Shown: positions 3,001 through 51,927 of the stretch, piece after piece
Position numbering within the stretch: position 1 is the first letter of the stretch
How the letters are laid out: the number at the start of each line of letters is the position of its first letter
Position numbers and translations under genes: made by a program
The notes under the pieces: model-generated
What the model saw: the letters and a program-made list of their open reading frames with translations, nothing else
Told to the model about the DNA's origin: nothing
Databases searched by the model: none
NCBI GenBank assembly: GCA_040954595.2
Contig: CM082592.2
Location: 2,346,438-2,410,437, forward strand
Direction: 5' to 3'
Length of the DNA stretch: 64,000 nt
Source of the DNA: Balanoglossus misakiensis
Taxonomy: Eukaryota; Animalia; Hemichordata

Positions 3001-6000
3001 TCAAAGCACTGGAGGAGTTCATATAATGAACTACAAAAAAACAGGGAGACTGCACACGGAAGTTTTAACATGACAGGTTAAAGCCTAAATGTAGTCCTGG
3101 CAGTGGCTGGATCTAAACGTTATCAAAGCACTGGAGGAGTTCATATAATGAACTACAAAAAAACAGGGAGACTGCACACGGAAGTTTTAACATGACAGGT
3201 TAAAGCCTAAATGTAGTCCTGGCAGTGGCTGGATCTAAACGTTATCAAAGCACTGGAGGAGTTCATATAATGAACTACAAAAAAACAGGGAGACTGCACA
3301 CGGAAGTTTTAACATGACAGGTTAAAGCCTAAATGTAGTCCTGGCAGTGGCTGGATCTAAACGTTATCAAAGCACTGGAGGAGTTCATATAATGAACTAC
3401 AAAAAAACAGGGAGACTGCACACGGAAGTTTTAACATGACAGGTTAAAGCCTAAATGTAGTCCTGGCAGTGGCTGGATCTAAACGTTATCAAAGCACTGG
3501 AGGAGTTCATATAATGAACTACAAAAAAACAGGGAGACTGCACACGGAAGTTTTAACATGACAGGTTAAAGCCTAAATGTAGTCCTGGCAGTGGCTGGAT
3601 CTAAACGTTATCAAAGCACTGGAGGAGTTCATATAATGAACTACAAAAAAACAGGGAGACTGCACACGGAAGTTTTAACATGACAGGTTAAAGCCTAAAT
3701 GTAGTCTTGGCAGTGGCTGGATCTAAACGTTATCAAAGCACTGGAGGAGTTCATATAATGAACTACAAAAAAACAGGGAGACTGCACACGGAAGTTTTAA
3801 CATGACAGGTTAAAGCCTAAATGTAGTCTTGGCAGTGGCTGGATCTAAACGTTATCAAAGCACTGGAGGAGTTCATATAATGAACTACAAAAAAACAGGG
3901 AGACTGCACACGGAAGTTTTAACATGACAGGTTAAAGCCTAAATGTAGTCCTGGCAGTGGCTGGATCTAAACGTTATCAAAGCACTGGAGGAGTTCATAT
4001 AATGAACTACAAAAAAACAGGGAGACTGCACACGGAAGTTTTAACATGACAGGTTAAAGCCTAAATGTAGTCCTGGCAGTGGCTGGATCTAAACGTTATC
4101 AAAGCACTGGAGGAGTTCATATAATGAACTACAAAAAAACAGGGAGACTGCACACGGAAGTTTTAACATGACAGGTTAAAGCCTAAATGTAGTCCTGGCA
4201 GTGGCTGGATCTAAACGTTATCAAAGCACTGGAGGAGTTCATATAATGAACTACAAAAAAACAGGGAGACTGCACACGGAAGTTTTAACATGACAGGTTA
4301 AAGCCTAAATGTAGTCTTGGCAGTGGCTGGATCTAAACGTTATCAAAGCACTGGAGGAGTTCATATAATGAACTACAAAAAAACAGGGAGACTGCACACG
4401 GAAGTTTTAACATGACAGGTTAAAGCCTAAATGTAGTCTTGGCAGTGGCTGGATCTAAACGTTATCAAAGCACTGGAGGAGTTCATATAATGAACTACAA
4501 AAAAACAGGGAGACTGCACACGGAAGTTTTAACATGACAGGTTAAAGCCTAAATGTAGTCCTGGCAGTGGCTGGATCTAAACGTTATCAAAGCACTGGAG
4601 GAGTTCATATAATGAACTACAAAAAAACAGGGAGACTGCACACGGAAGTTTTAACATGACAGGTTAAAGCCTAAATGTAGTCTTGGCAGTGGCTGGATCT
4701 AAACGTTATCAAAGCACTGGAGGAGTTCATATAATGAACTACAAAAAAACAGGGAGACTGCACACGGAAGTTTTAACATGACAGGTTAAAGCCTAAATGT
4801 AGTCCTGGCAGTGGCTGGATCTAAACGTTATCAAAGCACTGGAGGAGTTCATATAATGAACTACAAAAAAACAGGGAGACTGCACACGGAAGTTTTAACA
4901 TGACAGGTTAAAGCCTAAATGTAGTCTTGGCAGTGGCTGGATCTAAACGTTATCAAAGCACTGGAGGAGTTCATATAATGAACTACAAAAAAACAGGGAG
5001 ACTGCACACGGAAGTTTTAACATGACAGGTTAAAGCCTAAATGTAGTCCTGGCAGTGGCTGGATCTAAACGTTATCAAAGCACTGGAGGAGTTCATATAA
5101 TGAACTACAAAAAAACAGGGAGACTGCACACGGAAGTTTTAACATGACAGGTTAAAGCCTAAATGTAGTCCTGGCAGAGGCTGGATCTAAACGTTATCAA
5201 AGCACTGGAGGAGTTCATATAATGAACTACAAAAAAACAGGGAGACTGCACACGGAAGTTTTAACATGACAGGTTAAAGCCTAAATGTAGTCCTGGCAGT
5301 GGCTGGATCTAAACGTTATCAAAGCACTGGAGGAGTTCATATAATGAACTACAAAAAAACAGGGAGACTGCACACGGAAGTTTTAACATGACAGGTTAAA
5401 GCCTAAATGTAGTCTTGGCAGTGGCTGGATCTAAACGTTATCAAAGCACTGGAGGAGTTCATATAATGAACTACAAAAAAACAGGGAGACTGCACACGGA
5501 AGTTTTAACATGACAGGTTAAAGCCTAAATGTAGTCTTGGCAGTGGCTGGATCTAAACGTTATCAAAGCACTGGAGGAGTTCATATAATGAACTACAAAA
5601 AAACAGGGAGACTGCACACGGAAGTTTTAACATGACAGGTTAAAGCCTAAATGTAGTCTTGGCAGTGGCTGGATCTAAACGTTATCAAAGCACTGGAGGA
5701 GTTCATATAATGAACTACAAAAAAACAGGGAGACTGCACACGGAAGTTTTAACATGACAGGTTAAAGCCTAAATGTAGTCCTGGCAGTGGCTGGATCTAA
5801 ACGTTATCAAAGCACTGGAGGAGTTCATATAATGAACTACAAAAAAACAGGGAGACTGCACACGGAAGTTTTAACATGACAGGTTAAAGCCTAAATGTAG
5901 TCCTGGCAGTGGCTGGATCTAAACGTTATCAAAGCACTGGAGGAGTTCATATCATGAACTACAAAAAAACAGGGAGACTGCACACGGAAGTTTTAACATG

Positions 6001-6942
6001 ACAGGTTAAAGCCTAAATGTAGTCTTGGCAGTGGCTGGATCTAAACGTTATCAAAGCACTGGAGGAGTTCATATAATGAACTACAAAAAAACAGGGAGAC
6101 TGCACACGGAAGTTTTAACATGACAGGTTAAAGCCTAAATGTAGTCTTGGCAGTGGCTGGATCTAAACGTTATCAAAGCACTGGAGGAGTTCATATAATG
6201 AACTACAAAAAAACAGGGAGACTGCACACGGAAGTTTTAACATGACAGGTTAAAGCCTAAATGTAGTCCTGGCAGTGGCTGGATCTAAACGTTATCAAAG
6301 CACTGGAGGAGTTCATATCATGAACTACAAAAAAACAGGGAGACTGCACACGGAAGTTTTAACATGACAGGTTAAAGCCTAAATGTAGTCTTGGCAGTGG
6401 CTGGATCTAAACGTTATCAAAGCACTGGAGGAGTTCATATAATGAACTACAAAAAAACAGGGAGACTGCACACGGAAGTTTTAACATGACAGGTTAAAGC
6501 CTAAATGTAGTCTTGGCAGTGGCTGGATCTAAACGTTATCAAAGCACTGGAGGAGTTCATATAATGAACTACAAAAAAACAGGGAGACTGCACACGGAAG
6601 TTTTAACATGACAGGTTAAAGCCTAAATGTAGTCCTGGCAGTGGCTGGATCTAAACGTTATCAAAGCACTGGAGGAGTTCATATAATGAACTACAAAAAA
6701 ACAGGGAGACTGCACACGGAAGTTTTAACATGACAGGTTAAAGCCTAAATGTAGTCCTGGCAGTGGCTGGATCTAAACGTTATCAAAGCACTGGAGGAGT
6801 TCATATAATGAACTACAAAAAAACAGGGAGACTGCACACGGAAGTTTTAACATGACAGGTTAAAGCCTAAATGTAGTCCTGGCAGTGGCTGGATCTAAAC
6901 GTTATCAAAACACTAGAGGAGTTCATATCACGAACTACAAAA
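1..6942. repeat. 122-bp tandem satellite, ~57 copies, truncated by the window start
   Basis: Unit ctgcacacgg...aaaaaaacagggaga recurs every 122 nt (e.g. starts at 1341 and 1951, 5 x 122 apart). Copies are near-identical, with an indel-rich patch at ~2470-2840 and a diverged terminal copy at ~6900-6942. No unique spacers. Confidence 0.98.
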
Positions 6943-7209
6943 ACGGTCAAAGTTTCTATCAAAATGGCACCTGGTAGCTGCATCAATTGATCATATTATG
7001 ATGAATTGGATTAAACCATGATGGTGAACGGGTGAGAGTTATTACAAGCACACATAAATGCTCTTTCACTTACTTCCTATGGCAAACAGTAGCTACAACT
7101 GACAAGAAATTTTTACAATAAACATGATTTTGCTAATGGCATCAGGATGCCATTACTGCTGTTTTTTCTTAGAAAATGACTGCAGTTTGTTCTGTTGAAA
7201 GACCCGTAC

Positions 7210-13200: not shown

Positions 13201-14846
13201 GCCACTCACTAAAAATCCGTGATTGGCTAGATCTTAAGTTTACCATGGTAACTGTAGTTAAATTTCCATAGGTGACCGTATACCTTTAACATCCAGCGAC
13301 ATGATGCATGTGGAAACGATCCTTAATTATTCATTGTCAAATCATATTATATTGAGTATACTCAAATGCATTTTGCTCTGCCAAGGTGTAAGCACTTGCT
13401 TTAGACTCTCTCAAAGCCCACGATTCGCTACAAGGATCTTCACTGACGCGCCCTCAACTGTTTGGCAAGGGAGAAGCACCGTTTGGTGTTGTGTAGCGAA
13501 CCTCTCGGCGGGCACACATGCAATCAGTCCATAAGCCTGCATGGACGATGAGAGGGGCTGTGAGAGAGTCTAGCACTTGCTTATAATCTTGTGATCAGCT
13601 TCCAACAATTAAATTTATTTCCAAAACACGTGCTTGCAAAGTGGGGGAGAATTTACATGTAAGAGGCCATCTATATAGAATTTAAGAGGCCATCTATATC
13701 TTCTTAATTTGATAAAAAATGTAATAAATACAGGGTGTAATTGTTGTTTGTCGGTGACGAGTGCGGCTGATAAATTATCAAATATCGGTCGCGTGGAACC
13801 CTGTACAGCCCTACAAGACAACAAGGAGGTGATAAGATAACCATTGTGGCAATTATTATGTATTTGAAACCATCAACCGGTTGCCAAGAACTGCATTGGC
13901 GATTCACAAGGCCAGGTGAGGTAGTCTTAAGCTGCTTGAAAAAAGTTTACGTTTTCTTTGTGTGATGTTACATGACGAATTTGCAACATACTCAATTTGG
14001 CAAAACCTTAAATTTTCGTTGAAAATATTTTGGATTTTCGCAGACAATGTTGCGACTTGTTCTGTTCGGTGCATTTGTGGTTTTTGCCGCTGCAAGGCTG
14101 GCGCCATTTTATCCATCGGATGATTCGACAAGAGTGCCCAATAAGTACATCGTGGTCTTAAAGGTATGCCACCCTGTATTTTTGTAGAGTACATGTAAAT
14201 GGTAGCTTTGTAGACTAGTGCAAATATAACTCACAGAAACACAAATGATTTATAGTTGGACACGTTTAGTCATTTTTCCACCCAAATGATGGTACATGTA
14301 CATGTCTATGCTAAATAGTCATACTGTAAAACACTTTATTTTCGCGAGTTAAATTTTTCGTGATATCGAGAAATGCCACTGTTTCGCGAGTATTAATTTT
14401 TGCGTTCTCTTATTTCATTCACTGCATCGTTATCTTCAAAAACAATTTACGTGACTTTTTATTTTCACGCTATTTTGGCTCTCGCGTATTTGGCGAAAAT
14501 TAATTGCTAGTGAAGTGTTTTACAGTATATAAATATCGAAACTGTTTATACACCAATGTTTGTAATATTTTAAAGTTTTCCCGTTTATGGTATGGCACAC
14601 TAAACTTTCTAACGATAGCCGGAATAGGGTTGGACTGGATTATGAATTATTTACAGGGAGACACTGTGGACGATGTAGCAAATCAAATTGAAGAGTTGGG
14701 GCAGATTTTCCAGGTAGAGGTGAAAGTTTTAAGAAAATGGAATTCTGTACTCTTTGGGATGAGTGTGGAGATGACCAAAGACATCATGGAAAGGGTAGGC
14801 TCTTTACATGTAGTTTGTCATTGCAAAAAGATGATGATGATGATGG

Positions 14847-14892
<46 letters not shown>

Positions 14893-17800
14893 AGGAACTT
14901 CGTTGTAGAAAGGGGGAACATTATACACATGTTGACTGGCTATGAGGGCAACAGCATACATGTACGTCTGAAACCTGAAATCATTTTCGGAACTGATGCC
15001 CGGCAACTGATGACGTCATTTTATATGGATCAGCACAAAAAGAATGCATACCACGTGACTATCAATTGACCAATGAGAACACAGACTTTGGATGAGATGT
15101 GTTACAATACATTTTGATGAGTATTATCACAACTCTCTCACTGTTGCGGTACTAGTGTTTCCTTCATGTAAAATACTGTACCGACATTTGTGTGAAGTTT
15201 TCTCTTCTTTACTAGGTACGCACGCTTATTGGCGTAAATCATATTGAGGAGGATTCCATTGGTAGGGGGTCAGCTGTCGGTAGCTGGGGTCTCGATCGTG
15301 TCGACCAGCGTTACCTGCCAATGGACGATTCATTTATTCCACGAGGTACATGAAACTTTGATGCACGTGCCCATCTATCCTGCATATATCTCACTTGCAT
15401 CTTTTTGGCAAAAGCAGGAGCCAGTATGTGCTTGAGATTTTTTTTAGATATCATATTTGTTTATATTTTTGACCATAAATGGGCAAATGTATATTGGATG
15501 ATAGTGCATGTGCCTTCAATGATAGTAGACTCTTTTAAGAATATCTACGTGGTTTAGTTACCGCAAACAATTTTCTGTGGGGTAATGCAGTTGTATGATC
15601 ACGTTACAACTATCTTCATTCGAAGACTGTCTTTAAATTTGTTTTTATTTCTCGTTTAGACAACTTGTTTGTATTATTGTTTCCCTTTCATAATATTCCC
15701 AGGGGACGGTGCAGGTGTAAATGCATATGTACTGGACACTGGTATTCGTTACAGCCATGTTGACTTTGAGGGTAGAGCAGAATTCTGGTATGATTGCGTG
15801 CAGGACGGTCAGAGGGTAATATCCATTTTAGAGGAGAACAATTTGATTTCTGGTGGTGGTGAAGTATTTTCGATTGCCAGTCCACCTTTTTCCTAAAGCA
15901 AGTTTTAATTAAAACAATCAAACTTCGGGGGTTTTATAGCGTAAATTGTCTTGACCAGGACCCAACCGGTGATTGCCATGGGCATGGCACCCATTGCGCT
16001 GGTACTGTGGGTTCAAAGACGTACGGCGTTGCGAATAAGGTGTATCTCTGGGATGTTAGAGTGATGAATTGTAACAACCAGTGCCAGTGGTCCTGGCTGA
16101 TCGATGGTAAGTGAAATGCAAACCTGCATAAAACACATCCTTTATTGGCGATGCCAAAATGCATGTCCATCGCCTATCAAACAATTTCACACCTTCAAAC
16201 ACACAATCATGCAAAATGCTTCCTATTCTGTACAGTCAACATCTTTCCTTCACTTCTGCAACGTCATTTATGATAATCAAAGTGCACCACTTGGATGCTT
16301 AGATGGCCGCCCCTGTAGTTGTCAATTGATGATTGAAATGCCAACTTAAGGGTGTTGATCTGCAGGGTAACTACTGTACTGAAATGCAGATCATCGCAAA
16401 AAGAGACTGTCTTACAAATAAATGAATGAACACTGAAAGTGCTTGAAAATAATTTGAATCAAACGACAAAAAATGCAAAAGCAAAATCAAAGTAAGTTTA
16501 GGTTTCTTCTTTTTTGTTCATAATATGTTTTGTATATTCTATACCTAGTCTTTTAAAATTAAGTTAAGTAAATGTAACTATTTTTGTTAACTCACAGGTT
16601 TGAATCGTATTGGAAATTTGGGCGCGAAACCCGGAGTTGCATCAGTATCAATATATGGCAGTTACTCTGTGGCCTTAAACGCTGCCGTCAATGACTTAGT
16701 CAATAAAGGGTTTCCAGTTGCAATTTGCGCTGGAAACGACAATGCAGATGCATGCACCTACTCACCAGCCAGTGCTGCTGATGTAAGTGACCGTGGATAA
16801 TTCACAACAATGATGATAGCAGAATAAATTCTCCCCCAAGGAACGTTTGGAAGTGCGGAAAAATGGTTTATCTTGTAAATTTAATTTAATTTAATTTAAT
16901 TTAATTTAATTCAGGGAATCACAATTGGCGCCACAGAGAAAACAGACGCACGTTGGTCAAGTTCATCGTGGGGTTCATGCGTTCATATCTTTGCACCTGG
17001 TGTTGATATTCTAAGCACTTACAAGAACAGCGACACCTCTGTTGCGTACATGACTGGTACTTCCATGGCAACTCCCCATGTTGCAGGTATAAATTATTCT
17101 TCATGTTTGCTGTGCCTCGTTACTGTTTATCACATTTCCAATTTACTTTGATGTTGATCTCCCTGAACAGTGCAAACTATGTTTACGGTGTGGTTATAAA
17201 CAGAAAGTCGCACATGTGTATTTCTGATGACAACAAATGTTTTTGGTTGGATTGGAAGACAGAAAACGACTGACACAAGCCATAAAGTCCACCTAGTCAC
17301 AGTTGCACGTGATAATAGTCTAGTCCTAAGAGATACATGTTAAGCAGATAATTGACGTTTCTTCGTTTTATCACAGGTGCAGCAGCCATTCTCTTGCAAC
17401 TGAACCCTAGCCAAAGTGCATACCAGGTTAAAAATGCCATTTTGAGCGACGCCACAACTGGTGTGGTTGGAGATCCCCGAGGAACGCCCAACCGAATGCT
17501 GTACATTGGCTAGTCATTATCCACGGTTGAAATAGCATGTCAACAGGAAGAAGGACTACATTTAAATCATGAATCTTCAAATGTGTTTGATGATTTTGGT
17601 GCTAAACATAGGGTCTTATACACTAGAATAGACTAAAGTTTGGTGAACTTAAGTGATGTATTGTATTTAATTATCTGACGTCAATAAATTTGAAAATAAG
17701 TGGATACCAAGTGGATACCTATATCGGTTGCACCAGTTATTCGATAAATTATTCGGACAGCAAATTCGTAAACTGCTCAGCCAATATATTGGCAAAAGAT

Positions 17801-20800: not shown

Positions 20801-21666
20801 CAATCATCTGCCACTAGTTGGGCCTTGGACAAATTACCACATGATTTCTATGTACTCATCTAAGGTCATCTAAACCATAGACCCTAGGGTCTATGTCTAA
20901 ACATATAGTGGAAGAGGGTATGCTTGATAGCAGCACAAATGGAAATCTGGTCAATTGTGTCCTTTGTTATCTACTCAATGTCACTGTCAGCATATCAAGA
21001 CTTGATCTGGGTGTGATATCTAATTAAAGTACACATAGTCTTTGAAGTAGACTGTACAGTTATTCACATTGTGACTAGCTCCAGGTTTCGCTTGGTGGAG
21101 TACATTTGCCGTCATACCCTAGCCCCAAGACAACATCTGCATTGCTGGAGGCAGCAGAGATCAAATTGTGGCAGGCACTGGCTTGGAGTGGCAGAGAAGA
21201 CCCAGACTGCTTCTACAACTACAGCCTGAAGGTATGGACTTGGTTTGTGCATGGACGTCCATGGTTTGTGCATACAAAACGCCATTGGGATGACATAATA
21301 CAACTAATGTACACTGTGAGTCACACTTCTTTTGAAACAAAACCGAAAGGAATGTCTATGACAACGCCATGAACGTGCCAGAGAGGTGTAGATGACACCC
21401 ACTGTGATCGAAAGCTACCCTATTTATGCAATAGAAATAGAATGTGTAAACCTGTGAACAGTTGTTGACCGTGACTGCAACGGTAAACATAACGATTTCG
21501 GGTAAAGTAACCAAGACTTACGAATTTTGAATACTGGATAGGCCTCCACCAACTACCCTGCGCATAGCAGCGCATATCAGACGATAAAATGTCCAATTTT
21601 AGGCTCTCGGAATGACATAGTTGTTATGAATACATACCTGGATGATCCCACTATCGCGTGAAACAT
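7210..21666 (-). CDS. NUDT9: ADP-ribose pyrophosphatase NUDT9 (Nudix hydrolase), spliced; 3' exons lie beyond the window start
   Basis: Phase-consistent GT-AG exons: 21666-21638 (MFHAIVGSS, inferred exon 1), 11730-11479 (..[34 protein letters not shown]), 10279-10181 ([19 protein letters not shown]), 9030-8944 ([29 protein letters not shown]), 8377-8266 ([22 protein letters not shown]), 7353-7210 ([24 protein letters not shown]9-type Nudix box). Exon 1 is less certain than the others. Confidence 0.93.
9435..9786. mobile_element. Non-autonomous TIR element family A (GGGACAAAGTCTCTCTCTCGC termini, TTAA flank; Kolobok-like)
   Basis: gggacaaagtctctctctcgctgc ... gcagagagagagagactttgtccctttaa. 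Related copies at ~39985-40330, 54303-54482 and 59869-60153. Confidence 0.8.
10830..11415. mobile_element. TTAA/AGG-ended MITE family C, interrupted by a Harbinger-like insertion
   Basis: ttaaaggttcactgtaact ... aaagttacagctaatgtccctttac. Internal sequence is shared with 29174-29476 and with the ~26150-26480 region. Confidence 0.65.
10941..11214. mobile_element. PIF/Harbinger-like MITE with TTA target-site duplication
   Basis: TIRs ggccaaataaaaaaaaatatgtgctgtaccgattac / gtaatcggaacagcacatattattttttttggcc. Flanked by tta on both sides. Confidence 0.8.
13127..13289. mobile_element. MITE family B (TTAA-AGGTAT...ATACCT-TTAA; Kolobok-like)
   Basis: ttaaaggtatgcagtcacct ... aggtgaccgtatacctttaa. 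Related copies, in the opposite orientation, at ~29828-30010, 51732-51927 and 53648-53839. Confidence 0.8.
14047..17513 (+). CDS. Secreted subtilisin-like serine protease, S8A proteinase K/aqualysin type, with signal peptide and I9 propeptide
   Basis: Exons 14047-14163 ([25 protein letters not shown]), 14657-14794, 15216-15345 ([10 protein letters not shown]), 15703-15815 (YVLDTG, catalytic Asp), 15959-16106 ([11 protein letters not shown], His), 16598-16782 (AGN, oxyanion Asn), 16915-17086 ([15 protein letters not shown], Ser), 17377-17513 ([10 protein letters not shown]). All introns are GT-AG with consistent phases. Confidence 0.95.
14322..14527. mobile_element. TA-flanked MITE family D (CTGTAAAACAC termini)
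   Basis: tactgtaaaacactttattttcgcgag ... gtgttttacagta. Same termini as the longer copy at 41247-42157. Confidence 0.75.
14829..14892. repeat. (GAT)n microsatellite
   Basis: About 21 gat units in intron 2 of the subtilase gene. It produces the spurious poly-M, poly-D and poly-I ORFs in the track. Confidence 0.95.
16877..16911. repeat. (AATTT)n microsatellite directly before a splice acceptor
   Basis: aatttaatttaattt... runs into ttcag at 16914. Confidence 0.9.
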
Positions 21667-21730
21667 ATGAACAATCGCGGAAGTGGCGCCCAGGAACGCC
21701 AAACACGTCACTACAGAGAGACAAGGGTAG
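21667..21730. promoter_or_regulatory. Putative bidirectional promoter region between NUDT9 and the NEF1-like gene
   Basis: Locally CpG-rich, with an ETS-type CGGAAGTG at 21678-21685. It lies between the NUDT9 ATG (21666, minus) and a plus-strand donor agg|gtaggt (~21727) with an acceptor at ~22072 ahead of the 22138 ATG. Confidence 0.45.
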
Positions 21731-22137
21731 GTTGGGGTCACAGTGGAGAGACTGTGTGTGCAATGACCTCTTGTGACCTCAATCCTGTACACAGCCACGG
21801 ATTCTCATTCGATTTCAATTACGTACGAGCAGGAGATCAGCGACATGCAAAATGTGCAGCATTGCTCTCCCAATTTCCATTTTTCACTAAAGTTCCATTT
21901 TATCAAATCTATCACTCGATCCACTTTGTGAATAATTTGGAGCGTACACATACCGGGGTACACGTACACAACATGCGTACCCGCATCCGGAGAGTTCATA
22001 ATCCGAATCAGTTGAAACGATTATATCCACCACCTCACATTTGAGCATTTGACGACTGCTTGTTGTGTGCAGAGTGAGAAGCCCTGGAGAAGTACCAGAG
22101 ACAAAACCTGACCCACTTGTTCTGACGATTGCATAAG

Positions 22138-24909
22138 ATGGATAGCGATACCGATTCCGACAATCCCAACCATTCTCCAAAGCAGGAGTACCAGGAACTG
22201 ATCAGGCGTCCGTTACCAGCCTGGTTCGACCCCGGTCCATTTCGTTACAATGGACGATTCACACTTGCTTTCCTGCCATGTGGTATCATCGTACTTGCCA
22301 TAACTGGAGAACTACTGCTTGCAATAATCGCCGTCGGTGCGCTGATCGTGCATTTAATGGACACGGGAGGTGCCAAGCGCCGAGCTGTTGTTGTTTACCT
22401 GTGTACATTCATCATGGCTCAAATGACGGTTATTTATGCAGCCTTTCCGCTAATTTGGAATTCACAAATTAATATCATTTTGATATTCTTGATAAATATG
22501 TTCACAGTCTTGACGGGAGGACTTATACTTCTACAGTTTAGAGTGTTTCGATATGAAGAACCATATTTGGCGGTGACAGTAGAACTTGGTTTGTTTTGCA
22601 TCTACCCAGCAGTTTGTACAGCCCTCATCACCTGGAGCAGTGTTACCATGACAACTGTGTATGCAACACCCTATTACGTCATTACTTATGGATTTCTACT
22701 GCTGCGGTTATTCCTGACTCCATCACTGTCATCATTCCGGAAGGAAGACCCCAAAAGGATTGAAGATTGCTACGTCATTGGTGCTGTAGAATGTGCAGCT
22801 ATTTCATTATTATACGTCATGTTTCCTGTTCTATTATTCATCATCATCAATTTCTGGACATTACTCCAGTGGCAGGTGTTGTTGCAACTTTTATTCGTTC
22901 TTTGTGTCCCATCCTTTCTTGTGACTCTCCTGGGAATAAGACCATTCCTGGAGTACCAGGGACTGACTCTCAAACATGTTATGCTGGTGAGGTGGACATT
23001 TGGGCTTGCATCTTTGCTGTTGGGAACAATACTGTTACACATATATGGAATGGAATCGGCGCTACTTCCGTGGCTTGTACCAGCAGTCATCAGTAACTTG
23101 GTGTTAGGAGTGAGTACCAGGTTAAAGCAACACCGACTATGGAGCAACATCTGTGGATTAGCAGTCATGATTGTGTACACACTTACCAGTGTGAAGTCAT
23201 TACCGCTGCAACTGCAGAACCCCGCCCTGAACATGAGGACAGTCTCAGTGCTTCTGATCTGGCACTCTGTTATCACAGTTCTTTGTGTAATGGTTTCCAA
23301 CATATCCTGGCAAATTCTTAGCGTGGTCATCACCTTGGAAACGGTTCTTTTTGTCATCGCAGAGCACATACTCCACGCTCAGGAATTTTATGGCATCGTC
23401 ATGATGTTGTTAACTTCCCTGATAAGTGCCTACATGTTGTTCCGTTTACAAGATGTCAACAGAATACCATGGTCAGTGACCTCGCTAGGGCTGGCTTTGC
23501 ATTCCACAAAAATTCTTACATTACTCCACAGAACTGATTTGATTTCTGAGTCAGGAACTTGGATGTACATTGTTCAGATGTTTTCATTAATGTCTGCTGT
23601 AATGATATTAAGTAAGTTACTTGTATTTGAAAACAGAGAGGATTTGTCGAGAGAGCAAGGACTGTACTATACAGGAGGAATCTTACTGACATTTACAGCA
23701 GTACACATGACCATGTTTACACCGATATGGAAGGCAACTATGAGAGCAACACCCTCAGTAGCTGACATAGTCTCTTCAATTCTCATAACGTCAGGGCTAA
23801 CATATCTCAAATTAGTGTTTGTGCATATGCCAAAAGATACAGTTGCTAGGAAACTAAATGTTCTCATCATTCTCAGCGGCATTCTGATTAGTATTATGCA
23901 ACCGCAGGGCTTGGTGGAGGGTTCAGATGAGTGTGGATGGATGCTTGTAGTGGCTTTCATCTGGTTCACTGCGGTGATATTTTCAATAATTCCCAACACC
24001 CAGATAAAAATGCTGATATTTCTTCAGGCTGTATTGCTAGGCACCCCTATAGGGATACAAAGCATTGCTGTACTCAGTGCAGACTCGGCCTTTGACACAG
24101 CTCTTTGCAGTATAGCCTATATTACTGCAGCAAGCCTTGCCATGTATGTTGTGTTATTGCTGTGGAATTGGGGTGAGAAATCCAAGAGCATCACTGTGAA
24201 CCACGTTTTCAAAGCATCAGTCTGTTTGCTCAGTCTCTTCATGGTGACATTTCTGCTTGAATTGAGCCTACAGCCTGTTTGGGATAGCCTGTCCAAATCA
24301 CCCCTGCTGAGGGCAGCATTACCATGCACCACATACTTTTGTGTGATCTTCATTGTCATCAGCCTTGCTTTAAAGCTGCACTGCCAGAGTGTGAAGCATA
24401 AAGACCCTTTCCAGTACAGTGGCCCGGGAAAACTGGAATTGTTTGGCAATGTACTGACAATACTATCCTTCTTGCTTGCTGTTCTGAACTGCCCCTTAGA
24501 CCATCCTGAGATCTGGAACTGCACATGCTCTGTCTTGCTGTTGCTTTTACAAGAAGATAAATTTATGTTGCAAGGCTTCAAAGCAAACAATCAAGCAGGT
24601 CCGGTATTTACCGCAGTCATGGCGATTTTATTCATTTCCACCATTGCAGAGAGTGATGTGTGGAAATTCGGACTTACATGGAGTGCATTTGTGGAAATTC
24701 TCATTCTTCTATTGAACTTTACAACATACATTACATTCTGCACTGTAGTGTGGTGTGACTATTTATTCTCCTCCATAAAAACTATTTGCTTCAGCGTTCC
24801 ACTCAACACTCTGCTATTCCTCATTGGAAGTAGTTACAGTAGTTGGTTGCTAGGGTTACTGGGATTATTTGGTGGTTTTTGGTTAATTTGTTACAAAATA
24901 CCACTTTAG
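22138..24909 (+). CDS. 923-aa multipass membrane protein with an uninterrupted CDS, similar to plant NO EXINE FORMATION 1 (NEF1)
   Basis: Single 2.77-kb ORF (first ATG at 22138) with more than 20 hydrophobic segments. Motifs FDPGPFRYNGRFTLAFLPC, LQFRVFRYEEP..VELGLFCIYP, PSLSSFR, GNVLTILSF and LLLLLQED..GF are collinear with recalled Arabidopsis NEF1 motifs (FSPSSFAYNGRIAIALVPC, LQFKWLQLENP..LERLLFACVP, PRVSSFK, GNVATVMCF, LLLLNQDSDFVAGF). Confidence 0.85.
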   Translation: MDSDTDSDNPNHSPKQEYQELIRRPLPAWFDPGPFRYNGRFTLAFLPCGIIVLAITGELLLAIIAVGALIVHLMDTGGAKRRAVVVYLCTFIMAQMTVIYAAFPLIWNSQINIILIFLINMFTVLTGGLILLQFRVFRYEEPYLAVTVELGLFCIYPAVCTALITWSSVTMTTVYATPYYVITYGFLLLRLFLTPSLSSFRKEDPKRIEDCYVIGAVECAAISLLYVMFPVLLFIIINFWTLLQWQVLLQLLFVLCVPSFLVTLLGIRPFLEYQGLTLKHVMLVRWTFGLASLLLGTILLHIYGMESALLPWLVPAVISNLVLGVSTRLKQHRLWSNICGLAVMIVYTLTSVKSLPLQLQNPALNMRTVSVLLIWHSVITVLCVMVSNISWQILSVVITLETVLFVIAEHILHAQEFYGIVMMLLTSLISAYMLFRLQDVNRIPWSVTSLGLALHSTKILTLLHRTDLISESGTWMYIVQMFSLMSAVMILSKLLVFENREDLSREQGLYYTGGILLTFTAVHMTMFTPIWKATMRATPSVADIVSSILITSGLTYLKLVFVHMPKDTVARKLNVLIILSGILISIMQPQGLVEGSDECGWMLVVAFIWFTAVIFSIIPNTQIKMLIFLQAVLLGTPIGIQSIAVLSADSAFDTALCSIAYITAASLAMYVVLLLWNWGEKSKSITVNHVFKASVCLLSLFMVTFLLELSLQPVWDSLSKSPLLRAALPCTTYFCVIFIVISLALKLHCQSVKHKDPFQYSGPGKLELFGNVLTILSFLLAVLNCPLDHPEIWNCTCSVLLLLLQEDKFMLQGFKANNQAGPVFTAVMAILFISTIAESDVWKFGLTWSAFVEILILLLNFTTYITFCTVVWCDYLFSSIKTICFSVPLNTLLFLIGSSYSSWLLGLLGLFGGFWLICYKIPL

Positions 24910-27022
24910 TCTTTTGCTACAGCCTTTCACACTCCTGTCTCATTGCTATAAAAAGCACAGGCACTGTTTGAGAAATGGGATGAAAATTTATGCAATAATA
25001 ACAATTGTCATATTGATATGTTCAAGCAATAGGTATTTTGGATTGTCCAATTACATTGTATGTGAGCATTAGTTGTGTCTAATACACCTCATACATGTGT
25101 AAAGATTCTTGTGCCATTTTCAATCCCATTTTGATATTTAATATTTATAACATTTCTCAGTGCTGAAGTTGGAATGGCTACAAAACTATTTCCAATTGCT
25201 AAAAATTGAAATCTTACTTTGTGCTCTAGTAGATGAGCACACCAGAACACAAAGATGATCATGTTCAAATTTGCTGATTTACAGGACTCATCAGCATACA
25301 GTGCAATATGGAAATTGATAATGACATTACGATGTAGTTGAATAATAACAAATTATTTTGCAAATGATCACAATACAAGCCACATGTTGATAGACAAGTT
25401 TGATACAGGTGTACATGTCCTACAATATTTCCTAATTTTATAACTTTCCATAGTGTAGTGGATATTTTTTTCACATTGACAGCCACCTGGCCCTGGTCAA
25501 ACAAGAGGACTTCCTCATGATATCAAACAATTTAACCATAAGCCAGTTCAAAACAATTTGATTTTGAAGAGTTTGTAGTATGATCTTACACACTTTTAGA
25601 TGCATTTGATTCACCACAGTGACCGGGATTTGATTGATAGTGGAATTTTTATTTCAATAGAAAAGTTGTATGATTTTTCACACGTCACTGTATATTTTTC
25701 TAAATTTTCACATGAAGTGAGAATTAATAACTACATGTATATTGTGCCAGACTACAAATAAAACATCAGTATTGGAAAAATCTGTCTGTTTTCAGTATAT
25801 TTCTGTTCTTGTGTCTACTACAGTTTCTTTTATGATCAAAGTTTCACTGCTCTCTCCTTTGTGTACTATTTCAATATTTGTTTTGTTTTTGTTCTATACA
25901 TGCATTGTAGTTTTCAAGTCAGTTGGAATTTTAAAATTGCAATTCCACTTTTTGCCTTCCATTCTGCTTTCACAACACTATGCATACATATAGATATCTG
26001 ATGCCAAAAGCCCATGGATGTGTGTCCTCTATTGAACTCATAAAAGGTGGTTTGATAAATAATTCTGGTAATAAGGACATCCTCATAAGTGGACTTGCTT
26101 CAACGAATAAATTTCAGCAAATTGTGTTCTGAATTACTATAGCATGTGTTGCTCTATTAGCTGCAACATTTTGCCGTTTTCAGTTTTGTGTTTTATGTTT
26201 CTACTTCAGTTTCTTGTTCACATTCTTGAAACATTATAAAATGTCTAACATATCAACACAACACGTATTTATATAAACAGCATTGTTATTGTGCAAAATT
26301 TGATTTCAAGTCTGGACTAGAATTCCTTTGTCAACAATAAATAACATTGGTCATTACACACATACATGTGAGCAGCGAACAGGGTATATTAGCATGCTGT
26401 TTGGAGTACAACAAGAAATTACATTCGGTACACAGAACAAAAATACAGAATATAAAGCCAAAAGTTACAGCTTTTGTCACTTTGAGTGAGTGCATATGCC
26501 ATGGGATTGTGTATGCCCTTGGCCACTGAGCTGTAACCAAAATTCAGTTCCGAAACTCACCCAAGGCAAACATACATACCAGGATAATTTACGAGACGGC
26601 AAACAACTAAAATTATCTATCATTAAGAATCGTTATAAAGACAAAATTTGCCAAGGGACAAGTGGGCTAGTCTAATAGATAGGTGGCTAGAAATGGTGGT
26701 TATTTTCATTTACATAGCTGATAAAATAAAGTGGCCCTAACACTAACTGTGTGTTCCTCTACTCAATTGCAAAGCAACAGCGAAGGGTCGTGTGTCATGC
26801 ACGGCTTATCATTAGTTACAGGGCGGTACCCCTGTAAATGTTAGCCGAGTTCCAAAGTCATTTACCAGGGTTCCCGTAGCAGAAGTGTTTCCAGAATTAT
26901 TTACCAAATCTCCAGCGGCCCCAACCTCAACAAAACACTGCTTAGCACCATATGCTTATAGTTTCATGTACAGTTGCATACCACAGTCTCACTTCAACTT
27001 TTTTAGTGTATGAAGTATGGCA

Positions 27023-35600: not shown

Positions 35601-38600
35601 TCGTCTCGTTCTCTTTAACTCAAATATACATAACTTTTCCACCACTCCAAATGGTCTCTGGTTTTACACCGTTGTTAAGTAAATATTCCAGGATGAAGTA
35701 TGCGTTGTATCCTTTCGGATTGTGAGTGAGGGCTATTGACTTCTCGTTCTCCTCAGAAAAAAACCAACAACAAAATTCTTCTCAGTTCTGCACCCTTCTC
35801 ACCATAAAATATTTTCTGATTCTCCCCAGACTCCTCGCACTGACTACGCTCATCCACATGTTCAATATGAGTGCAATTTGAACAAACTCGTTGTGCAATG
35901 ACGGTGTAACATTCTATGACGTTCTATCAAATGATTCCCATAGCCTCAAGCAGTCACATTGACACAAGTAGATTGGGATGGTCCAAATCATAGTGTTGTT
36001 TGTAGCGACCACTTTCCGGACAATTCGTTTGACAGCAAAAGACAGGACCCTCTTATATCTCACCAATATTAGCTAACAGGCACCACTGTCGATCTAAACT
36101 GAAAGGCAACACCGTACCCAATCCGACAACACAAAGGCAGTCACCAGAAAAGAATGCACAGCCCACAGAATTGCAGAAAGAGCAACTGATGTACCACGGC
36201 CAGAAAAACAGCAAAAAGATTTGAAGACAACAGACCTCACCTGGTAATTTAGTGACACGATGAAAACTATGCCAGCCTAAACTTTGAAGACATACTGGCT
36301 ACAGATTTGAGGCAAGGTTAGATAATTGGAGTGGACAAAAATAAGTCACATAATGCTCATTTAATGACACATTTTCTTTGATGTTTGGCCTTTGGGGACC
36401 ACCCTAAGATTGAAGTTTTTCCAGCCTAACACCAAAGTTACCCGACTCTGGCATATTGAATTTCAAATATTGTTTAGCTCTGCTGATGTGCACGTGTGAC
36501 CTGTTGTTTGTTCCAAAGGGGGATAACTGGAATTAGATTATTCCAGTGACCAGGTAATTTGGAAACCAACTTGAGAGTCATGACTGCATCTCTGGTGACT
36601 AATGTGTCTGCTTCGAGGAAAATCAAATGAATGCCTATACACGCTTAACCCTAACGCTGCCAATGTTGAAACTGGTTAGATTTCCAGGGTGCCTAGAATC
36701 CTGGCTCCCAGGCCTGTTTATAGACTGCCAAGTGCGTGTTAATCAGGGCCTATACAAGACCCTCAGACCAATACAGTGCAAACCAGTGCAATTTGATACA
36801 TTTTACAGGGGGCTCAGACTGCCAAGTGTGTCTAAGTACGTATGAGAGCCATGTCATGACAGTCAAAATATGTTTCAGAAGAAAAAGTGGTAAATACGTA
36901 TTTTAAGGGACTTGACACTCTAAACAGGTATGACACCCAGTAGCATTAGGGTTAATATTAATTGAGAGAATATAAAACCATCTTACCCGATACTCTCCAG
37001 ATGCCTCGTCTATATCATCAACATACAGATATTTATGTTCTCTGTAATATTCTCTCTTCTTGAGGACATACAACACAACTATATCACACATTATTGTTGC
37101 CTGAAAAACAAAATAACAAAATGTTGGACTCTAAATTATTAAGATGATATTTTGTTCATAAATGTTTACCCCTTGTCTCTTTGGTCTGGCTCTCTGGTGC
37201 CCTATGGATTTCATCTCCCCCCCCCCCCCCCCCCCCATTTCGTGCACTAGGTCACCACCTAGAGCCTACAACTGTTTCTTGCAACATGGTTTTTTGTTTG
37301 CCCAATGCCACAGGAGCTGAACAAAAGGGGCCCCTGTCCAACCAGGTTTAGGTAGTTAGTTTTGCTACTTATGTATAGGATAGACAGGCATTTTTTTCAC
37401 AGGTTGCTTTGAAATTTTTATATTATCCAGCCAGTCGCTTTGGGCATTTTTTACTTAGCCCCCTTTTCTTTGCCTTTTTGCTTTGTTTTGACTTGTTTGT
37501 TTGTTTCTGTTACTGCATTAAACCATTCTTTTTCTTACATCTCTGTCTGGAGGTGAGCATTTACAAACTTATCAACAGAATGTTTGACTCTAAATTATTA
37601 AGATATTTTTCTGTAGATGTTCTTAGAAAATGTACCAAAGGTTTAAAACTGCTTCAAATAATATAAATCAAATGGTTGAAAGGCTGTCACATTGACTTGG
37701 AAAAGCTCCTTGAGAAAATCTTTTCACAGGCTACATGAAAATGTCATATGATACCCCAGATTTAAGATTTTATTTTCTGTACCCGTTTCATATCTGTACA
37801 AGGATATAGAATTTGTATGAAACTTTTACAGGTGAAGAGAGGTAAGTGAGGTTATTATGGAAATACTGTCGGAAAATATTTTCTCGTAGGAGCTGTCTGG
37901 AAATACTATGTGAGGCCTGACAGTGAAATAAAAACAATATGTCTACTCAGTAACATTTGTGCTGACTTAGCTTGCAATACCATTTCCATAGCTTGCTGAA
38001 TTCTTTTGCAATGATCTGATTTCTGTCAGACTTACCAAGGATAAAAGAGCCAAACCAGCACCAATATTCAGAAAGAGTGGAATAACACTGAATTTGCCTG
38101 CTTCTCCAGTGACAATAACATCATAGAGGATACCATAGGCTTTAGTCAGTGTTCTGTATTCATCTGTTTCGTTAATCTTGTACTTGTAGGCAAATCTAAG
38201 AATAGGAGATAAAGACAAGAATATATTTTGTGTTTCACGTTTTCCTTTAAGTATTAAAGTTTATAAGAAAATTGAGTCAAAACTCCACAGATTATCAACA
38301 TTTACACTCTTGTGTGGGAATCATCATGATCATACCTAATCCAATCAAATCAAATCAAATCAAGTCAAATCATTTCAGATCAGATCACAAACCTGAAGTT
38401 AAAACCTTTGGCAATCTTGGCATCAGGGTTGTCAAGACGACGAAATCCATAACGAGGTTTACATTCATCGGCACTGTGATCCAAATTGCACTGCCACTCA
38501 ATGAAGATGCCCATCACTCCACCCTGTCATGTACCAGAATATTTCATGTTGTTTATAATGAGATAAGAAAGGGTGATCAATATTGTTACCATGGTGATGA

Positions 38601-41600
38601 AGAGTATTTACTCCATTTTGTGCAACACAATGAACAGGTTAATGGTGAAGTCTGTACACCTCATCAACAAACTAAAAGGGATGGAAACTTACATGTTAGA
38701 ATACAAAGTTAGACAGTGTAACATCATTATTATTCATTTCTTGTATGTCAACACATTGTTGGTCATTTAGGGCCACCTGTAATACTCGATAATAGAGGCC
38801 ATTTTCAAGCAATTTCTCTGTGTATGCACCCTTGCCCACAAATAAACATGAATAGTCAGTGTGTCCCCCTTCATTCCATCAATATCAGATATAGGACAAG
38901 CTGTGAACAGCTAACGTGTCAGTGATCAACCGTTGGACTGTCTCACTTGATTTTCAAAAGTGAAAGATGCTATTTATTTCTGGGATGACATGAGTAAATT
39001 CTTCATTTTTCAGTTCTAGTTAAAATGATCTTTTCCATTTCTATCTATTCATTGGTGAAATACAATTGCAATATGCAATGTTGGGTGAAATAGTTTTAAG
39101 AATGTAATTTCAGCAGGGGTAACTTTTGGCCAAGCAGTAAACATGGTTTTTCCATATGAATTCAAAAATTATGGCTGGTGACTTAGTAAATTAATTCTAC
39201 ACAAATGAATGGTAAGTACAGACTTGCCTCCATTGCTACAGTCTCAAAATCCTCTCCGGATTCTGTGACAATATCCCCAAGACGAAATATTGGACAGAAC
39301 TGTAAATCTGGATCGCCAGAATTGTAGTGACAAGTTTTCAGAAAACTTTCATTGGAACTTTCCAAAATGTTCCTTCTGGAAAAGTGAAAAGTGCAGAGAT
39401 ACAACATGATTGATACATCTCCTGAACAAAATAACTGCTGTTATTTATAAGCATTGATTTCTTTACACTGGATGTCATACGAATTTTTGTACAGAGAGCA
39501 CCCTTGAAAAACATTGTGTCATCTCCAAGTACATGACATGAAAATGAGGCCAGCAGGTCAGAGTAACCACACCATTGGCAAAGAGAACAATATGGCAAAC
39601 TATTGGTGAAAGGGTCAAATGTTTATGAAATCACTTAAAAGCAACATAAACTGTATCCGACTTACAAATGAAAGATTCCACTTACTTTGAAAAATTGAAC
39701 TTGGGAAACGATATGCTGTTTTTGATGAGTACAGTGAAATTGGCGGCTTCATACAAAACCGGTCTGTCAGTCCTGTTTGAGCAGAAAGTTGAAACATTTT
39801 CAATTCAGGTACTTCCAATACATTATACATCATCCAAATGTAACAAACCTGGCAGTTAGGAACACTTATGAAACTGAGAACCTCTACTTCTTATTGTACA
39901 TTTACCTTGGAACAACTGTACACAAAAGATGTTAACTAGTAAGGAAGACAAGTGACTACATGTATAACTTGACACACTGACTGATCAAAGTCTCTCTCTC
40001 GCTGCCCTTTTTAAATTAATTATATTTGATACAAGACACCGTTCATGTTATTCTACATGTGGATATATAGTGAATGAACGTTCAACCACACACAACTTCC
40101 TTCCTACTTGTATGGTATGAGAGTAAAAACTTGCCCAAAATGAATAAATGGTAGAGACCGATTGTTCATTTTGGCGAGTTTTTCAATCTCGTGTCTACAA
40201 GCGGGATTGAAGGTGTGTGTGGTTGAATATTGATTCACAATATATTCTCATGTACATTAACATAAATGTTGTCTTGTATCAAACATAATTAATGGGAAAA
40301 GGTCAGCTAGAGAGAGACTTTGTCCATTTAAGGGAATACAAAACAAACAGGATTTTCAACACTCTCTTGAAAATATTATGGATCATCCAACAGCAAAGAT
40401 TCCTACATCAATTTTAACAACGGAAGTTTAGAAAATTGGGTTTTAGAATGCAAATGGTGACTAACATTATTTGGCAATGCATGTATAAGCAACTGGGTGC
40501 AACAAGTCATTGTTAATCAAGTTGGAATGAAATCAGTTGAGCTATTCTATGACAAAATATACCAGCTAGCACAGTAAGGGGGCCTTGGCCAATATTGATA
40601 ATTTTTCTGGAATGCTGTGAGCAAATTTGTCTGCGAACTACAGTAATGACATAACTACAACCATGAGATGATTATTGTTTTGAAAATAAGTCCAACCAGG
40701 AAGAAATATGTCACAGGTGAAACAGCTGGGAAAGTAAATAGTTACAATACAAGTATTTCCATCATATCTTTGACCTTACTTTCTTTTGAAATAATATAAC
40801 ATACAGAAGCAAAGTGATTGCAGAGATGTTACACATCCATATATTGTACCAATGTGTTGACCATATCAGCAAAAGTGGTAGATTGAAGTTTATCCTTGAA
40901 TGCTTTTTCAAACATTTATCATGATAGCTATAATTTGACCTTTGTTGCAACCCTGCAAGCCATTTGGATGTTGAACAAGCCATCAAAATCAGTCAAACCT
41001 GTCATAACACATTTCTATGTCCCTGTACCAACTTTGAATGTAATCAGTTCAAGCATGTTTCAGTATTGCATTCTGATGGGCAGACAAATTTACAGGTAGA
41101 CAGATGGACAGACGAACAAAGCCCAATGCAAAACATTTGTCAACAATAAATGTCGTCCAACAGCATACCGGTACTGTAAAACACTGAATTAGCTGCATTC
41201 ATTTTGGCGAATTTAGATTTTCGGTTCATTTACTGGGTTTGTGACTTACTGTAAAACACTTTATTTTCGCGAGCATTAAATTTACGCTAAATACGTGAGA
41301 GCCAAAACTACGCAAAAATAAAGACTCGCGTACATACAATGTATAGTTGTGAAAGAACCAGAGTTTCCGGTTATGCAAAAATGTGCGTAATACACGCAAT
41401 GGAAAATTTCTATACGCATATTGAACCGACAAGTGCGTCTGGTGTACGCAATGAAATTGACTCTGTTTTCGCCATTGAAAGTTCGAGCTAACAAAAGACT
41501 CGTCAAACGACCGACAAACTAGACAGCACCTTGTGCACGCTTACATGTTTTGAATAAAATTGCAACATTCCAAACCATTTGCGCAGACGCTTGACCATGA

Positions 41601-51731: not shown

Positions 51732-51927
51732 TTAAAGGTATATTGTCACCTATGGAAAATTAGCTATAGTTACCATGGCAAATTGAGATCTAGCCAATCA
51801 CAGACTTTCACAGTGGGTGGCACAAGCGAAATAAAGAGCTCCACCATATGTTCTTTAGAACGCTACAAATACTCCATTTCAGCCATATATGGGCGTATGT
51901 AAATTGGAGGTGACTGTATACCTTTAA
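51732..51927. mobile_element. MITE family B copy
   Basis: ttaaaggtatattgtcacct ... aggtgactgtatacctttaa. Confidence 0.85.

What the first reader, a model, noticed from the sequence alone, without database searches (positions are those of the whole stretch)
22138..24909. Animal homolog of plant NO EXINE FORMATION 1 (NEF1) with an intron-free CDS
Seen: a 923-aa uninterrupted ORF with more than 20 hydrophobic segments, while every neighbouring gene is intron-rich. Knowledge (recalled, not searched): its N-terminal and C-terminal motifs are collinear with Arabidopsis NEF1, a membrane protein linked to tapetal lipid handling and pollen exine formation. I know of no characterised animal member. Inference: it is either an ancient eukaryotic lipid or polymer transport family lost in model animals, or a horizontally acquired or retroposed gene that took over the NUDT9 promoter. 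Its animal function is unknown.
Basis: partly seen in the sequence, partly recalled or inferred. Interest (0 to 1): 0.8.

Follow-up and report, generated by a model that had tools for sequence, protein, structure and literature searches.

The report
Animal counterpart of pollen-wall protein NEF1
This single-exon animal gene encodes a full-length relative of NEF1, a protein so far studied only in plant pollen walls; it is predicted to cross the membrane about 30 times, its relatives in corals, molluscs, worms, starfish and protists point to ancient inheritance rather than transfer from plants, and it likely helps move lipid-like material to the cell surface.

Summary
The 923-codon unbroken ORF (22138-24909, +) is real and is a NEF1-family protein. 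A profile built only from non-animal rows scores it 211 bits (400 shuffles: at most 3.7); animal and non-animal profiles align over 875 columns (probability 100).

It is no orphan or horizontal transfer. Relatives are named from 16 animals in six phyla, plus an orchid, Diphylleia and Spironema. The tree follows the animal species tree with the query sister to echinoderms, and grouping it with green plants is rejected (p 2e-61). All animal rows, the query included, lack a 50-residue insert found in non-animal rows.

Mollusc-like relatives show an intron at codon 793 that is absent here, so introns were likely lost, perhaps early. AlphaFold gives a confident 30-helix model (pLDDT 90) with both ends predicted cytosolic, no soluble domain and no clear solved-structure match.

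The mechanism is inferred: a secretory-pathway or cell-surface transporter-like subunit, possibly partnered with DEX1, which has the same mutant phenotype in plants and a similar patchy distribution. Binding was not tested. No paper on animal NEF1 was found. New member of a known, mechanistically open family; interest 0.5.

The parts
22138..24909 (+). Single-exon CDS of the 923-aa NEF1-family membrane protein (P0001), about 30 predicted membrane helices
22195..23058 (+). N-terminal module (residues 20-307, first 9 helices), the best-conserved part: F35-Y37-N38-R40, Q133-F134, E149 (60 of 60 rows), S198-S199-F200
   Evidence: (pLDDT 96.4, pTM 0.92)
23362..23511 (+). Codons 409-458: conserved polar residues within or beside predicted helices 13-15 (E409 55/57, Y418 52/58, T426 49/58, K458 55/58); candidate transport site or buried ion pair (inferred)
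24514..24516 (+). Codon W793. Relatives show a phase-0 intron right after the equivalent codon; here the sequence runs on without one
21250..22500 (.). CpG-rich region (observed/expected about 0.9 against 0.05-0.5 on either side), candidate bidirectional promoter; ETS-like GCGGAAGT at 21677 (motif assignment recalled)
21638..21666 (-). Candidate first coding exon of the NUDT9-like neighbour (ATG at 21666, CAG|GTATGT donor, phase 2, in frame with exon 11730-11479); its ATG lies 472 bp from that of the NEF1-like gene
   Evidence: not confirmed by RNA
25757..25762 (+). First AATAAA downstream of the stop, candidate polyadenylation signal; no genomic poly(A) run longer than 6 within 3 kb

Best explanation
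This gene is the animal member of the NEF1 family, likely inherited vertically from an early eukaryote; it encodes a protein predicted to have about 30 membrane helices and no soluble domain, and likely works in the secretory pathway or cell surface as a transporter-like subunit that moves lipid-like or matrix precursors outward, possibly with the single-pass protein DEX1. Shown: the ORF, family membership, the tree position, absence of an intron found in relatives. Predicted: 30 helices, both termini cytosolic, all outer loops short, conserved motifs mostly on the cytosolic face plus one polar cluster (E409, Y418, T426, K458). Inferred: location in ER/Golgi/plasma membrane rather than plastid, since animals keep the family and have no plastid; a transport role, carried over from the plant mutant; DEX1 as partner; broad expression from a promoter shared with the NUDT9-like gene; old intron loss. 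My odds: vertical NEF1 orthologue about 0.95; transporter-like role in surface-material delivery about 0.45; direct DEX1 partnership about 0.3.
For: Family: 120 proteins at E<=0.001 among 1.84 billion representatives, 24 at <=1e-30. Profile of 20 animal rows vs 19 non-animal rows: probability 100, E 7e-64, 875 columns. HMM of the 19 non-animal rows scores the query 211 bits over residues 29-917; reversed -32; best of 200 full shuffles 0.7 (196 returned a score), best of 200 local shuffles 3.7. Range: 17 of 20 clusters looked up carry a species name, plus 2 of 3 hits: 16 animals in six phyla, Vanilla NEF1, Diphylleia, Spironema. Trees: animals one clade (100), query plus echinoderms 97 and 95; query plus 7 green rows rejected, p-AU 2e-61. 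Segment q302-345 is 39-49 residues in 26 of 26 animal rows and 90-138 in 29 of 29 non-animal rows. Topology: mean K+R 2.05 in 14 inner loops vs 0.52 in 15 outer loops in animals, p 1e-5; 2.22 vs 1.0 in non-animals, p 1e-3. Plant function (passages of reviews): nef1 makes sporopollenin but fails to deposit it on the microspore membrane for lack of normal primexine (PMC3220415); sterol esters are reduced (PMC12346373); nef1 and dex1 both disturb primexine and membrane undulation (PMC7063588). The DEX1 orthogroup is in Nematostella, sea urchin, Dictyostelium, Euglena, Trypanosoma and 13 of 13 green species, and absent from human, mouse, pig, frog, fly, C. elegans, rotifer and yeast (PMC13261697 supplement); an oyster gene is annotated Dex1 (PMC13280272).
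Against: No transport activity has been measured in any paper seen; reviews call NEF1 a plastid membrane protein. No family or solved structure supports a transporter fold. Only 13 polar positions are conserved in at least 75% of rows, which suits a scaffold as well. In the LECA co-fractionation map DEX1 has no partner at cuts 1608 and 2014 (coarser cuts not fully checked; soluble extracts), and I could not find the NEF1 row there. Loss in vertebrates, flies, worms and yeast is a common pattern, and for NEF1 itself it is not proven: most of the 120 hits are unnamed and short fragments were not placed. Expression is not shown.
Confidence: 0.45

Rival explanations
1. A non-transporting membrane scaffold or sensor that bends or organises the membrane, with an N-terminal module built like the membrane anchor of adenylyl cyclases; lipid changes in nef1 would be secondary.
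For: Human adenylyl cyclase 5 (8sl3_A) is the top match for the N-terminal model: Z 9.5, rmsd 6.1, 205 of 288 aligned, next row 7.2; second for the whole model, Z 9.3. Microspore membrane undulation is abnormal in nef1 (PMC7063588). Few conserved polar residues.
Against: Z under about 13 is within the tool's stated background for helical bundles; 7% identity; no other cyclase among the top 50; Foldseek does not list it; no cyclase Pfam hit in 39 members.
Confidence: 0.25
2. A stand-alone ion or small-solute transporter or channel of Golgi, lysosome or vacuole that sets lumen conditions for matrix synthesis, unrelated to DEX1 and not handling lipid.
For: Compact all-membrane build with short loops; oppositely charged conserved E409 and K458 in neighbouring helices; single-looking, slowly lost gene across eukaryotes.
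Against: No inverted repeat typical of many carriers was detected at sequence level (best internal match probability 26); no transporter family match.
Confidence: 0.2
3. A membrane-embedded enzyme (acyl- or glycosyltransferase of MBOAT or GT-C type) that makes a surface lipid or glycan.
For: Polytopic, lipid phenotype in plants, invariant E149.
Against: No His or Cys is conserved in 75% of rows, whereas MBOATs need an invariant His (recalled); E149 lies at the predicted cytosolic end of helix 5 and there is no large luminal loop as in GT-C enzymes (GT-C features recalled); no Pfam match.
Confidence: 0.08
4. On origin: a young retrocopy in this lineage whose intron-bearing parent survives elsewhere in the genome.
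For: No introns here, intron traces in relatives; it lies beside another gene's promoter.
Against: No poly(A) remnant; the 3' half of the CDS is strongly CpG-depleted (0.07-0.3), as expected of a long-resident methylated gene; none of 23 C-terminal fragments has an echinoderm best hit, and an asteroid-side relative is recorded full length on a 98-kb contig (P0123; gene caller unknown), hinting that echinoderms lack the intron too.
Confidence: 0.1
5. On origin: horizontal acquisition from a plant, alga or protist by this animal or its recent ancestors.
For: Intron-free CDS; the family is named from plants.
Against: Best hits are animal at 1e-143 to 1e-60, non-animal at 1e-14 or weaker; species-congruent trees; p-AU 2e-61; the query shares the animal deletion and lacks the C-terminal G-x-[KR]-x-[ILV] motif found in 18 of 32 non-animal and 0 of 30 animal rows.
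Confidence: 0.01

Closest known systems
Plant NO EXINE FORMATION 1 (Arabidopsis AT5G13390; tested through Vanilla planifolia KAG0465526.1, UniRef name 'No exine formation 1' = P0060)
   Same: Collinear over the whole length; same conserved residues; same predicted N-in/C-in topology with no soluble domain.
   Different: About 20% identity; about 190 residues shorter; lacks a 50-residue insert (likely two more helices) and the C-terminal G-x-[KR]-x-[ILV] motif; no plastid in the host; single-exon CDS.
Uncharacterised invertebrate proteins: Acanthaster XP_022102151.1, Anneissia XP_033119316.1, Lytechinus XP_054749159.2, Owenia CAH1798390.1, Lingula XP_013411980.1, Patella KAK6187462.1, Oculina KAL9984102.1, Paramuricea CAB3982047.1
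   Same: Full-length orthologue-like matches, 23-35% identity, one clade with the query.
   Different: All are named uncharacterised or hypothetical (the Mactra entry carries an unrelated automatic name). Mollusc-like relatives have an intron after the W793 codon; the query has none.
DEX1 (DEFECTIVE IN EXINE FORMATION 1, F4IYM4, orthogroup ENOG502QRZ6)
   Same: Same primexine phenotype in plants and a similar patchy range including cnidarian, sea urchin and oyster.
   Different: Not a homologue: a single-pass type I, calcium-binding protein. Proposed here as a partner only; binding untested.
Membrane anchor of class III adenylyl cyclases (human AC5, 8sl3)
   Same: Loose helix-bundle match to residues 20-307, Z 9.5, rmsd 6.1, 205 aligned.
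   Different: 7% identity, no catalytic domain, score within background for helical bundles; a lead only.

Membership tests
NEF1 family (all eukaryotes) | Full-length collinear sequence similarity to a protein named NEF1 | tested here: met
   name from UniRef for P0060; Atlas first hit 'No exine formation 1' at 0.87 is a lead only
NEF1 family (all eukaryotes) | Very polytopic membrane protein without soluble domain | tested here: met
NEF1 family (all eukaryotes) | Residues conserved in both animal and non-animal rows (E149, S199, E409, K458, P589, N771, D807) | tested here: met
   the query carries all seven
NEF1 family (all eukaryotes) | Direct comparison with Arabidopsis AT5G13390 | not tested
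   no call returned that sequence under its name
NEF1 family (all eukaryotes) | Function in lipid handling and surface-matrix deposition; rescue of nef1 | not testable with these tools
   plant phenotype known only from review passages
Non-animal (plant/algal/protist) NEF1 subtype | 50-residue insert between q302 and q345 | tested here: not met
   44 residues in the query; 39-49 in 26 of 26 animal rows, 90-138 in 29 of 29 non-animal rows
Non-animal (plant/algal/protist) NEF1 subtype | C-terminal G-x-[KR]-x-[ILV] motif | tested here: not met
   0 of 30 animal rows, 18 of 32 non-animal rows
Horizontally acquired plant or algal gene | Branches within the donor group | tested here: not met
Curated transporter or membrane-enzyme families (Pfam, NCBIfam) | Profile match | tested here: not met
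   query 0 families; 39 members gave 2 single weak hits; 6 proteins 0 NCBIfam families
Adenylyl cyclase membrane anchor fold | Structural match clearly above background | tested here: inconclusive
   Z 9.5, rmsd 6.1, 205 aligned; not seen by Foldseek
Retrogene | Loss of introns present in orthologues | tested here: met
   15 of 15 fragments reaching upstream of codon 794 have Gln at the W793 position, against Trp in 21 of 22 full-length animal rows; inferred from protein fragments, no DNA of relatives seen
Retrogene | Poly(A) remnant or an intron-bearing parent copy | tested here: inconclusive
   no A-run over 6 within 3 kb; genome not held

The most novel reading that the evidence does not exclude
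NEF1 and DEX1 are the two halves of an undescribed membrane machine dating from the last eukaryotic common ancestor: a 30-helix protein of unsolved fold and a single-pass calcium-binding partner that together lay down extracellular coat material. Plants use it for pollen primexine; corals, molluscs, annelids, echinoderms and acorn worms kept it; vertebrates, flies, nematodes and yeast lost it, which is why it was missed.
Probability: 0.3. Interest if true: 0.8.

Novelty: new member of a known kind. Interest (0 to 1): 0.5.

Why it matters
NEF1 was published as a 'novel plant protein' and is cited as a plastid membrane protein, and its biochemical role has stayed open since 2004. Full-length members in animals and plastid-free protists show that the core function is neither pollen-specific nor likely plastid-specific. 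They also make it testable in Nematostella, sea urchin or unicellular models. The confident 30-helix model with no solved counterpart is a structure target, and the conserved residues give direct mutants. The gene itself is one of many unannotated invertebrate orthologues already in databases, so the horizontal-transfer story that drove the first score falls away.

Tried and rejected
Word-indexed protein search with the query alone found nothing and with alignment A3 only 3 proteins; the exhaustive search was needed. The exact sequence is not in the protein collection or the Atlas.

Pfam, NCBIfam and PDB sequence searches gave no family. A weak hit to 6bhp (E 0.0016) vanished with two other profiles and was dropped. 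Foldseek on PDB and on viral models gave nothing at E<=0.001; the VIA-align second look reached only Z 6.2. These blanks do not show that the fold is new, and residues 308-923 were not folded and searched alone. No internal repeat was found.

An ExxxLI sorting motif in the N-tail occurs in only 2 of 27 animal rows and was rejected as a conserved signal. No RNA holder was listed. Two metagenome scans found no relative, so no orthologous DNA, intron map or synteny was seen.

The Nudix neighbour could have been the tail of a TRPM2 channel, which scored best for one exon. None of 110 minus-strand frames between 11745 and 36900 hit a channel family, so a stand-alone NUDT9-like gene is preferred. 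The bootstrap tree did not finish; supports are SH-aLRT from quick trees.

Ten paper searches listed no paper on an animal or protist NEF1. The library lacks most subscription journals and I did not read Ariizumi 2004. The pan-plant complex preprint has no NEF1 or DEX1 in its main text; its supplements could not be seen and may bear on the partnership. Guessed accessions did not locate NEF1 in the LECA table, which is cut. No DEX1 sequence was obtained. No earlier scan note covers this family.
Full report
Observation. The window holds one long open frame, 22138-24909 on the + strand, 923 codons. It has 23 hydrophobic segments by a strict window test and GRAVY 0.89. The neighbours are split into exons: a Nudix gene on the - strand, a subtilase, a P2X receptor and INTS1, whose named hits are animal.

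Identity. Pfam, NCBIfam and PDB sequences gave no family. An exhaustive search of 1.84 billion representatives returned 120 proteins at E<=0.001, the best full length at 34-35% identity. I looked up 20 of the 120; 17 clusters carry a species name, and a profile search added two more (2 of 3 hits). Sixteen are animals: three echinoderms, six molluscs, three annelids, a brachiopod, a nemertean and two cnidarians. The other three are Vanilla 'No exine formation 1', Diphylleia rotans and Spironema sp. Profiles of 20 animal and 19 non-animal rows align over 875 columns with probability 100. As a control for hydrophobic bias, an HMM of the non-animal rows alone scores the query 211 bits across residues 29-917, against -32 for the reversed sequence and at most 3.7 for 400 shuffles, half of them local shuffles that keep the hydropathy profile. 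The protein is a NEF1-family member. Arabidopsis NEF1 itself was not among the named rows.

Origin. A tree of 62 long rows (fragments under about 640 aa left out) puts 30 animal-side rows in one clade (SH-aLRT 100), with cnidarians outside a bilaterian group, lophotrochozoans together (99) and the query sister to five echinoderm-side rows (97). A 28-row tree under a mixture model gives the same groups (95 for query plus echinoderms), though it leaves the order of the animal groups open; it is a quick tree because the bootstrap run did not finish. Holding the query with seven green-plant-side rows is rejected, p-AU 2e-61. Two characters agree: the stretch q302-345 is 39-49 residues long in 26 of 26 animal rows and 90-138 in 29 of 29 non-animal rows, and a C-terminal G-x-[KR]-x-[ILV] motif is in 18 of 32 non-animal and 0 of 30 animal rows. 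The position beside echinoderms fits an acorn-worm host, which unreviewed notes on other pieces of this genome also suggest. Horizontal transfer into this lineage is refuted. Members in animals, plants, Diphylleia and Spironema make a very early eukaryotic origin likely; that step is inference. None of the 19 names is a chordate, arthropod, nematode or fungus, and every long unnamed animal-side row but one (P0031, at the base) falls inside a named clade, but short fragments were not placed, so those losses are likely, not shown. No relative above 35% identity was returned, so no other acorn-worm sequence was seen; I cannot explain that.

Introns. Among the hits are 23 short C-terminal fragments that look like single exons called as genes. 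Their match to the query begins at about residue 794 or later, and their best full-length hits are mollusc rows, several only at 30-36%. All 15 that reach upstream of that point have Gln, mostly after Phe, Leu or Tyr, where 21 of 22 full-length animal rows have Trp. That is the reading expected of a pyrimidine-rich CAG splice acceptor, so these relatives likely have a phase-0 intron after codon 793, where the query runs straight on. The query has therefore likely lost introns. No fragment has an echinoderm best hit, and an asteroid-side protein is recorded whole on a 98-kb contig, so the loss may date to the common ancestor of echinoderms and acorn worms (about 0.6; weak evidence, no DNA of relatives seen). 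There is no poly(A) remnant, and no genome was available to look for a parent copy.

Promoter. CpG observed/expected is about 0.9 from 21250 to 22500 and falls to 0.07-0.3 in the 3' half of the CDS, the pattern of an unmethylated promoter and a methylated, broadly expressed gene body (interpretation from general knowledge). Of 20 candidate first exons for the Nudix gene, the one at 21666-21638 has a consensus donor, lies in this island and is in frame with the exon at 11730-11479. That puts the two start codons 472 bp apart, head to head. A second CpG-rich patch near 14000-14500 offers a weaker alternative. No RNA run was listed to check this.

Anatomy. AlphaFold2 with 57 sequences gives mean pLDDT 89.6 and pTM 0.77; residues 20-307 alone give 96.4 and 0.92. 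I count 30 membrane helices. Lys and Arg alternate between loops as the positive-inside rule predicts for both termini in the cytosol (animals 2.05 vs 0.52, p 1e-5; non-animals 2.22 vs 1.0, p 1e-3), and in animals no outer loop has a median over 16 residues. Thirteen polar positions are kept in at least 75% of rows, none of them His or Cys; E149 is invariant (60 of 60). Most lie on the cytosolic face; E409, Y418, T426 and K458 cluster in helices 13-15. Structure searches found no clear match. The one row that stands out is the membrane region of human adenylyl cyclase 5 against the N-terminal module (Z 9.5, rmsd 6.1, 205 aligned, next 7.2), still within the background for helical bundles.

How it likely works. 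I saw only review passages on the plant gene: nef1 makes sporopollenin but does not deposit it on the microspore membrane because primexine is abnormal (PMC3220415); sterol esters fall and the review calls it a plastid membrane transporter (PMC12346373); nef1 and dex1 both disturb membrane undulation (PMC7063588). The original paper (Ariizumi 2004) was seen only as a title in reference lists. Since animals keep the family, a plastid role cannot be the shared one; a secretory-pathway or plasma-membrane site is the simplest inference. With no soluble domain and no catalytic signature, a transporter-like role is my best reading (0.45), ahead of a scaffold or sensor (0.25), a stand-alone solute carrier (0.2) and an enzyme (0.08). 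A partner lead came from recall and was then checked in print: the supplement of PMC13261697 lists the DEX1 orthogroup in Nematostella, sea urchin, Dictyostelium, Euglena, Trypanosoma and all 13 green species, absent from human, mouse, pig, frog, fly, nematode, rotifer, yeast, diatom, Plasmodium and Tetrahymena, and calls it a LECA family; an oyster gene is annotated Dex1 in one table row of PMC13280272. This resembles the NEF1 range found here. Against it, DEX1 has no partner at the two finest cuts of that map, the NEF1 row was not found, such loss patterns are common, and binding was not tested. I put the partnership at 0.3.

Novelty and verdict. Ten searches of the held library listed no paper on animal or protist NEF1; subscription journals and orthology databases were not searched and may already group these proteins. 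The finding is a new member of a known kind: the animal branch of a family whose mechanism is open. The surprise of a plant gene in an animal is gone; what remains is an ancient, unannotated 30-helix protein and a testable two-protein hypothesis. Interest 0.5.

Noticed in passing
window 1-6943: Tandem array of a 122-bp unit, about 57 copies, 98% matches. It begins just past the last NUDT9-like exon seen (about 7190), so it may lie in an intron of that gene.
   Followed up: no
window about 14500-17150 (+): Multi-exon subtilase gene (PF00082 hits at 15863-16111 and 16900-17148) on the strand opposite the NUDT9-like gene; it would be nested in its 10-kb first intron if the exon at 21666-21638 is right. 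A (GAT)21 repeat lies at 14830-14892.
   Followed up: partly
window 11730-11479 (-): NUDT9-like exon contains an internal Met 11 residues before the conserved core, which could give a shorter form without a targeting peptide (resemblance to human NUDT9 recalled). Best PDB sequence hit is the NUDT9 domain of Nematostella TRPM2, then human NUDT9.
   Followed up: partly
window about 36900-45280 (-): Multi-exon P2X receptor gene (three exons hit PF00864).
   Followed up: no
window about 51900-58600 (+): INTS1 (Integrator subunit 1); exon 54663-54929 matches named INTS1 proteins.
   Followed up: partly
window 60768-61124 (-): Open frame of 119 codons starting with a signal-peptide-like stretch and three cysteines, in a CpG-rich zone; no Pfam family. 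Possibly an exon of a small secreted protein.
   Followed up: partly
P0012 (Mactra antiquata KAL4233802.1): This NEF1-family protein carries the source name 'Pleckstrin y domain-containing A member 1', which no profile scan supports: a likely mis-annotation.
   Followed up: partly
non-animal rows of alignment A4: A C-terminal G-x-[KR]-x-[ILV] motif is kept from land plants to Diphylleia and Spironema (18 of 32 rows) and lost in all 30 animal rows; it may be a sorting or binding signal.
   Followed up: partly
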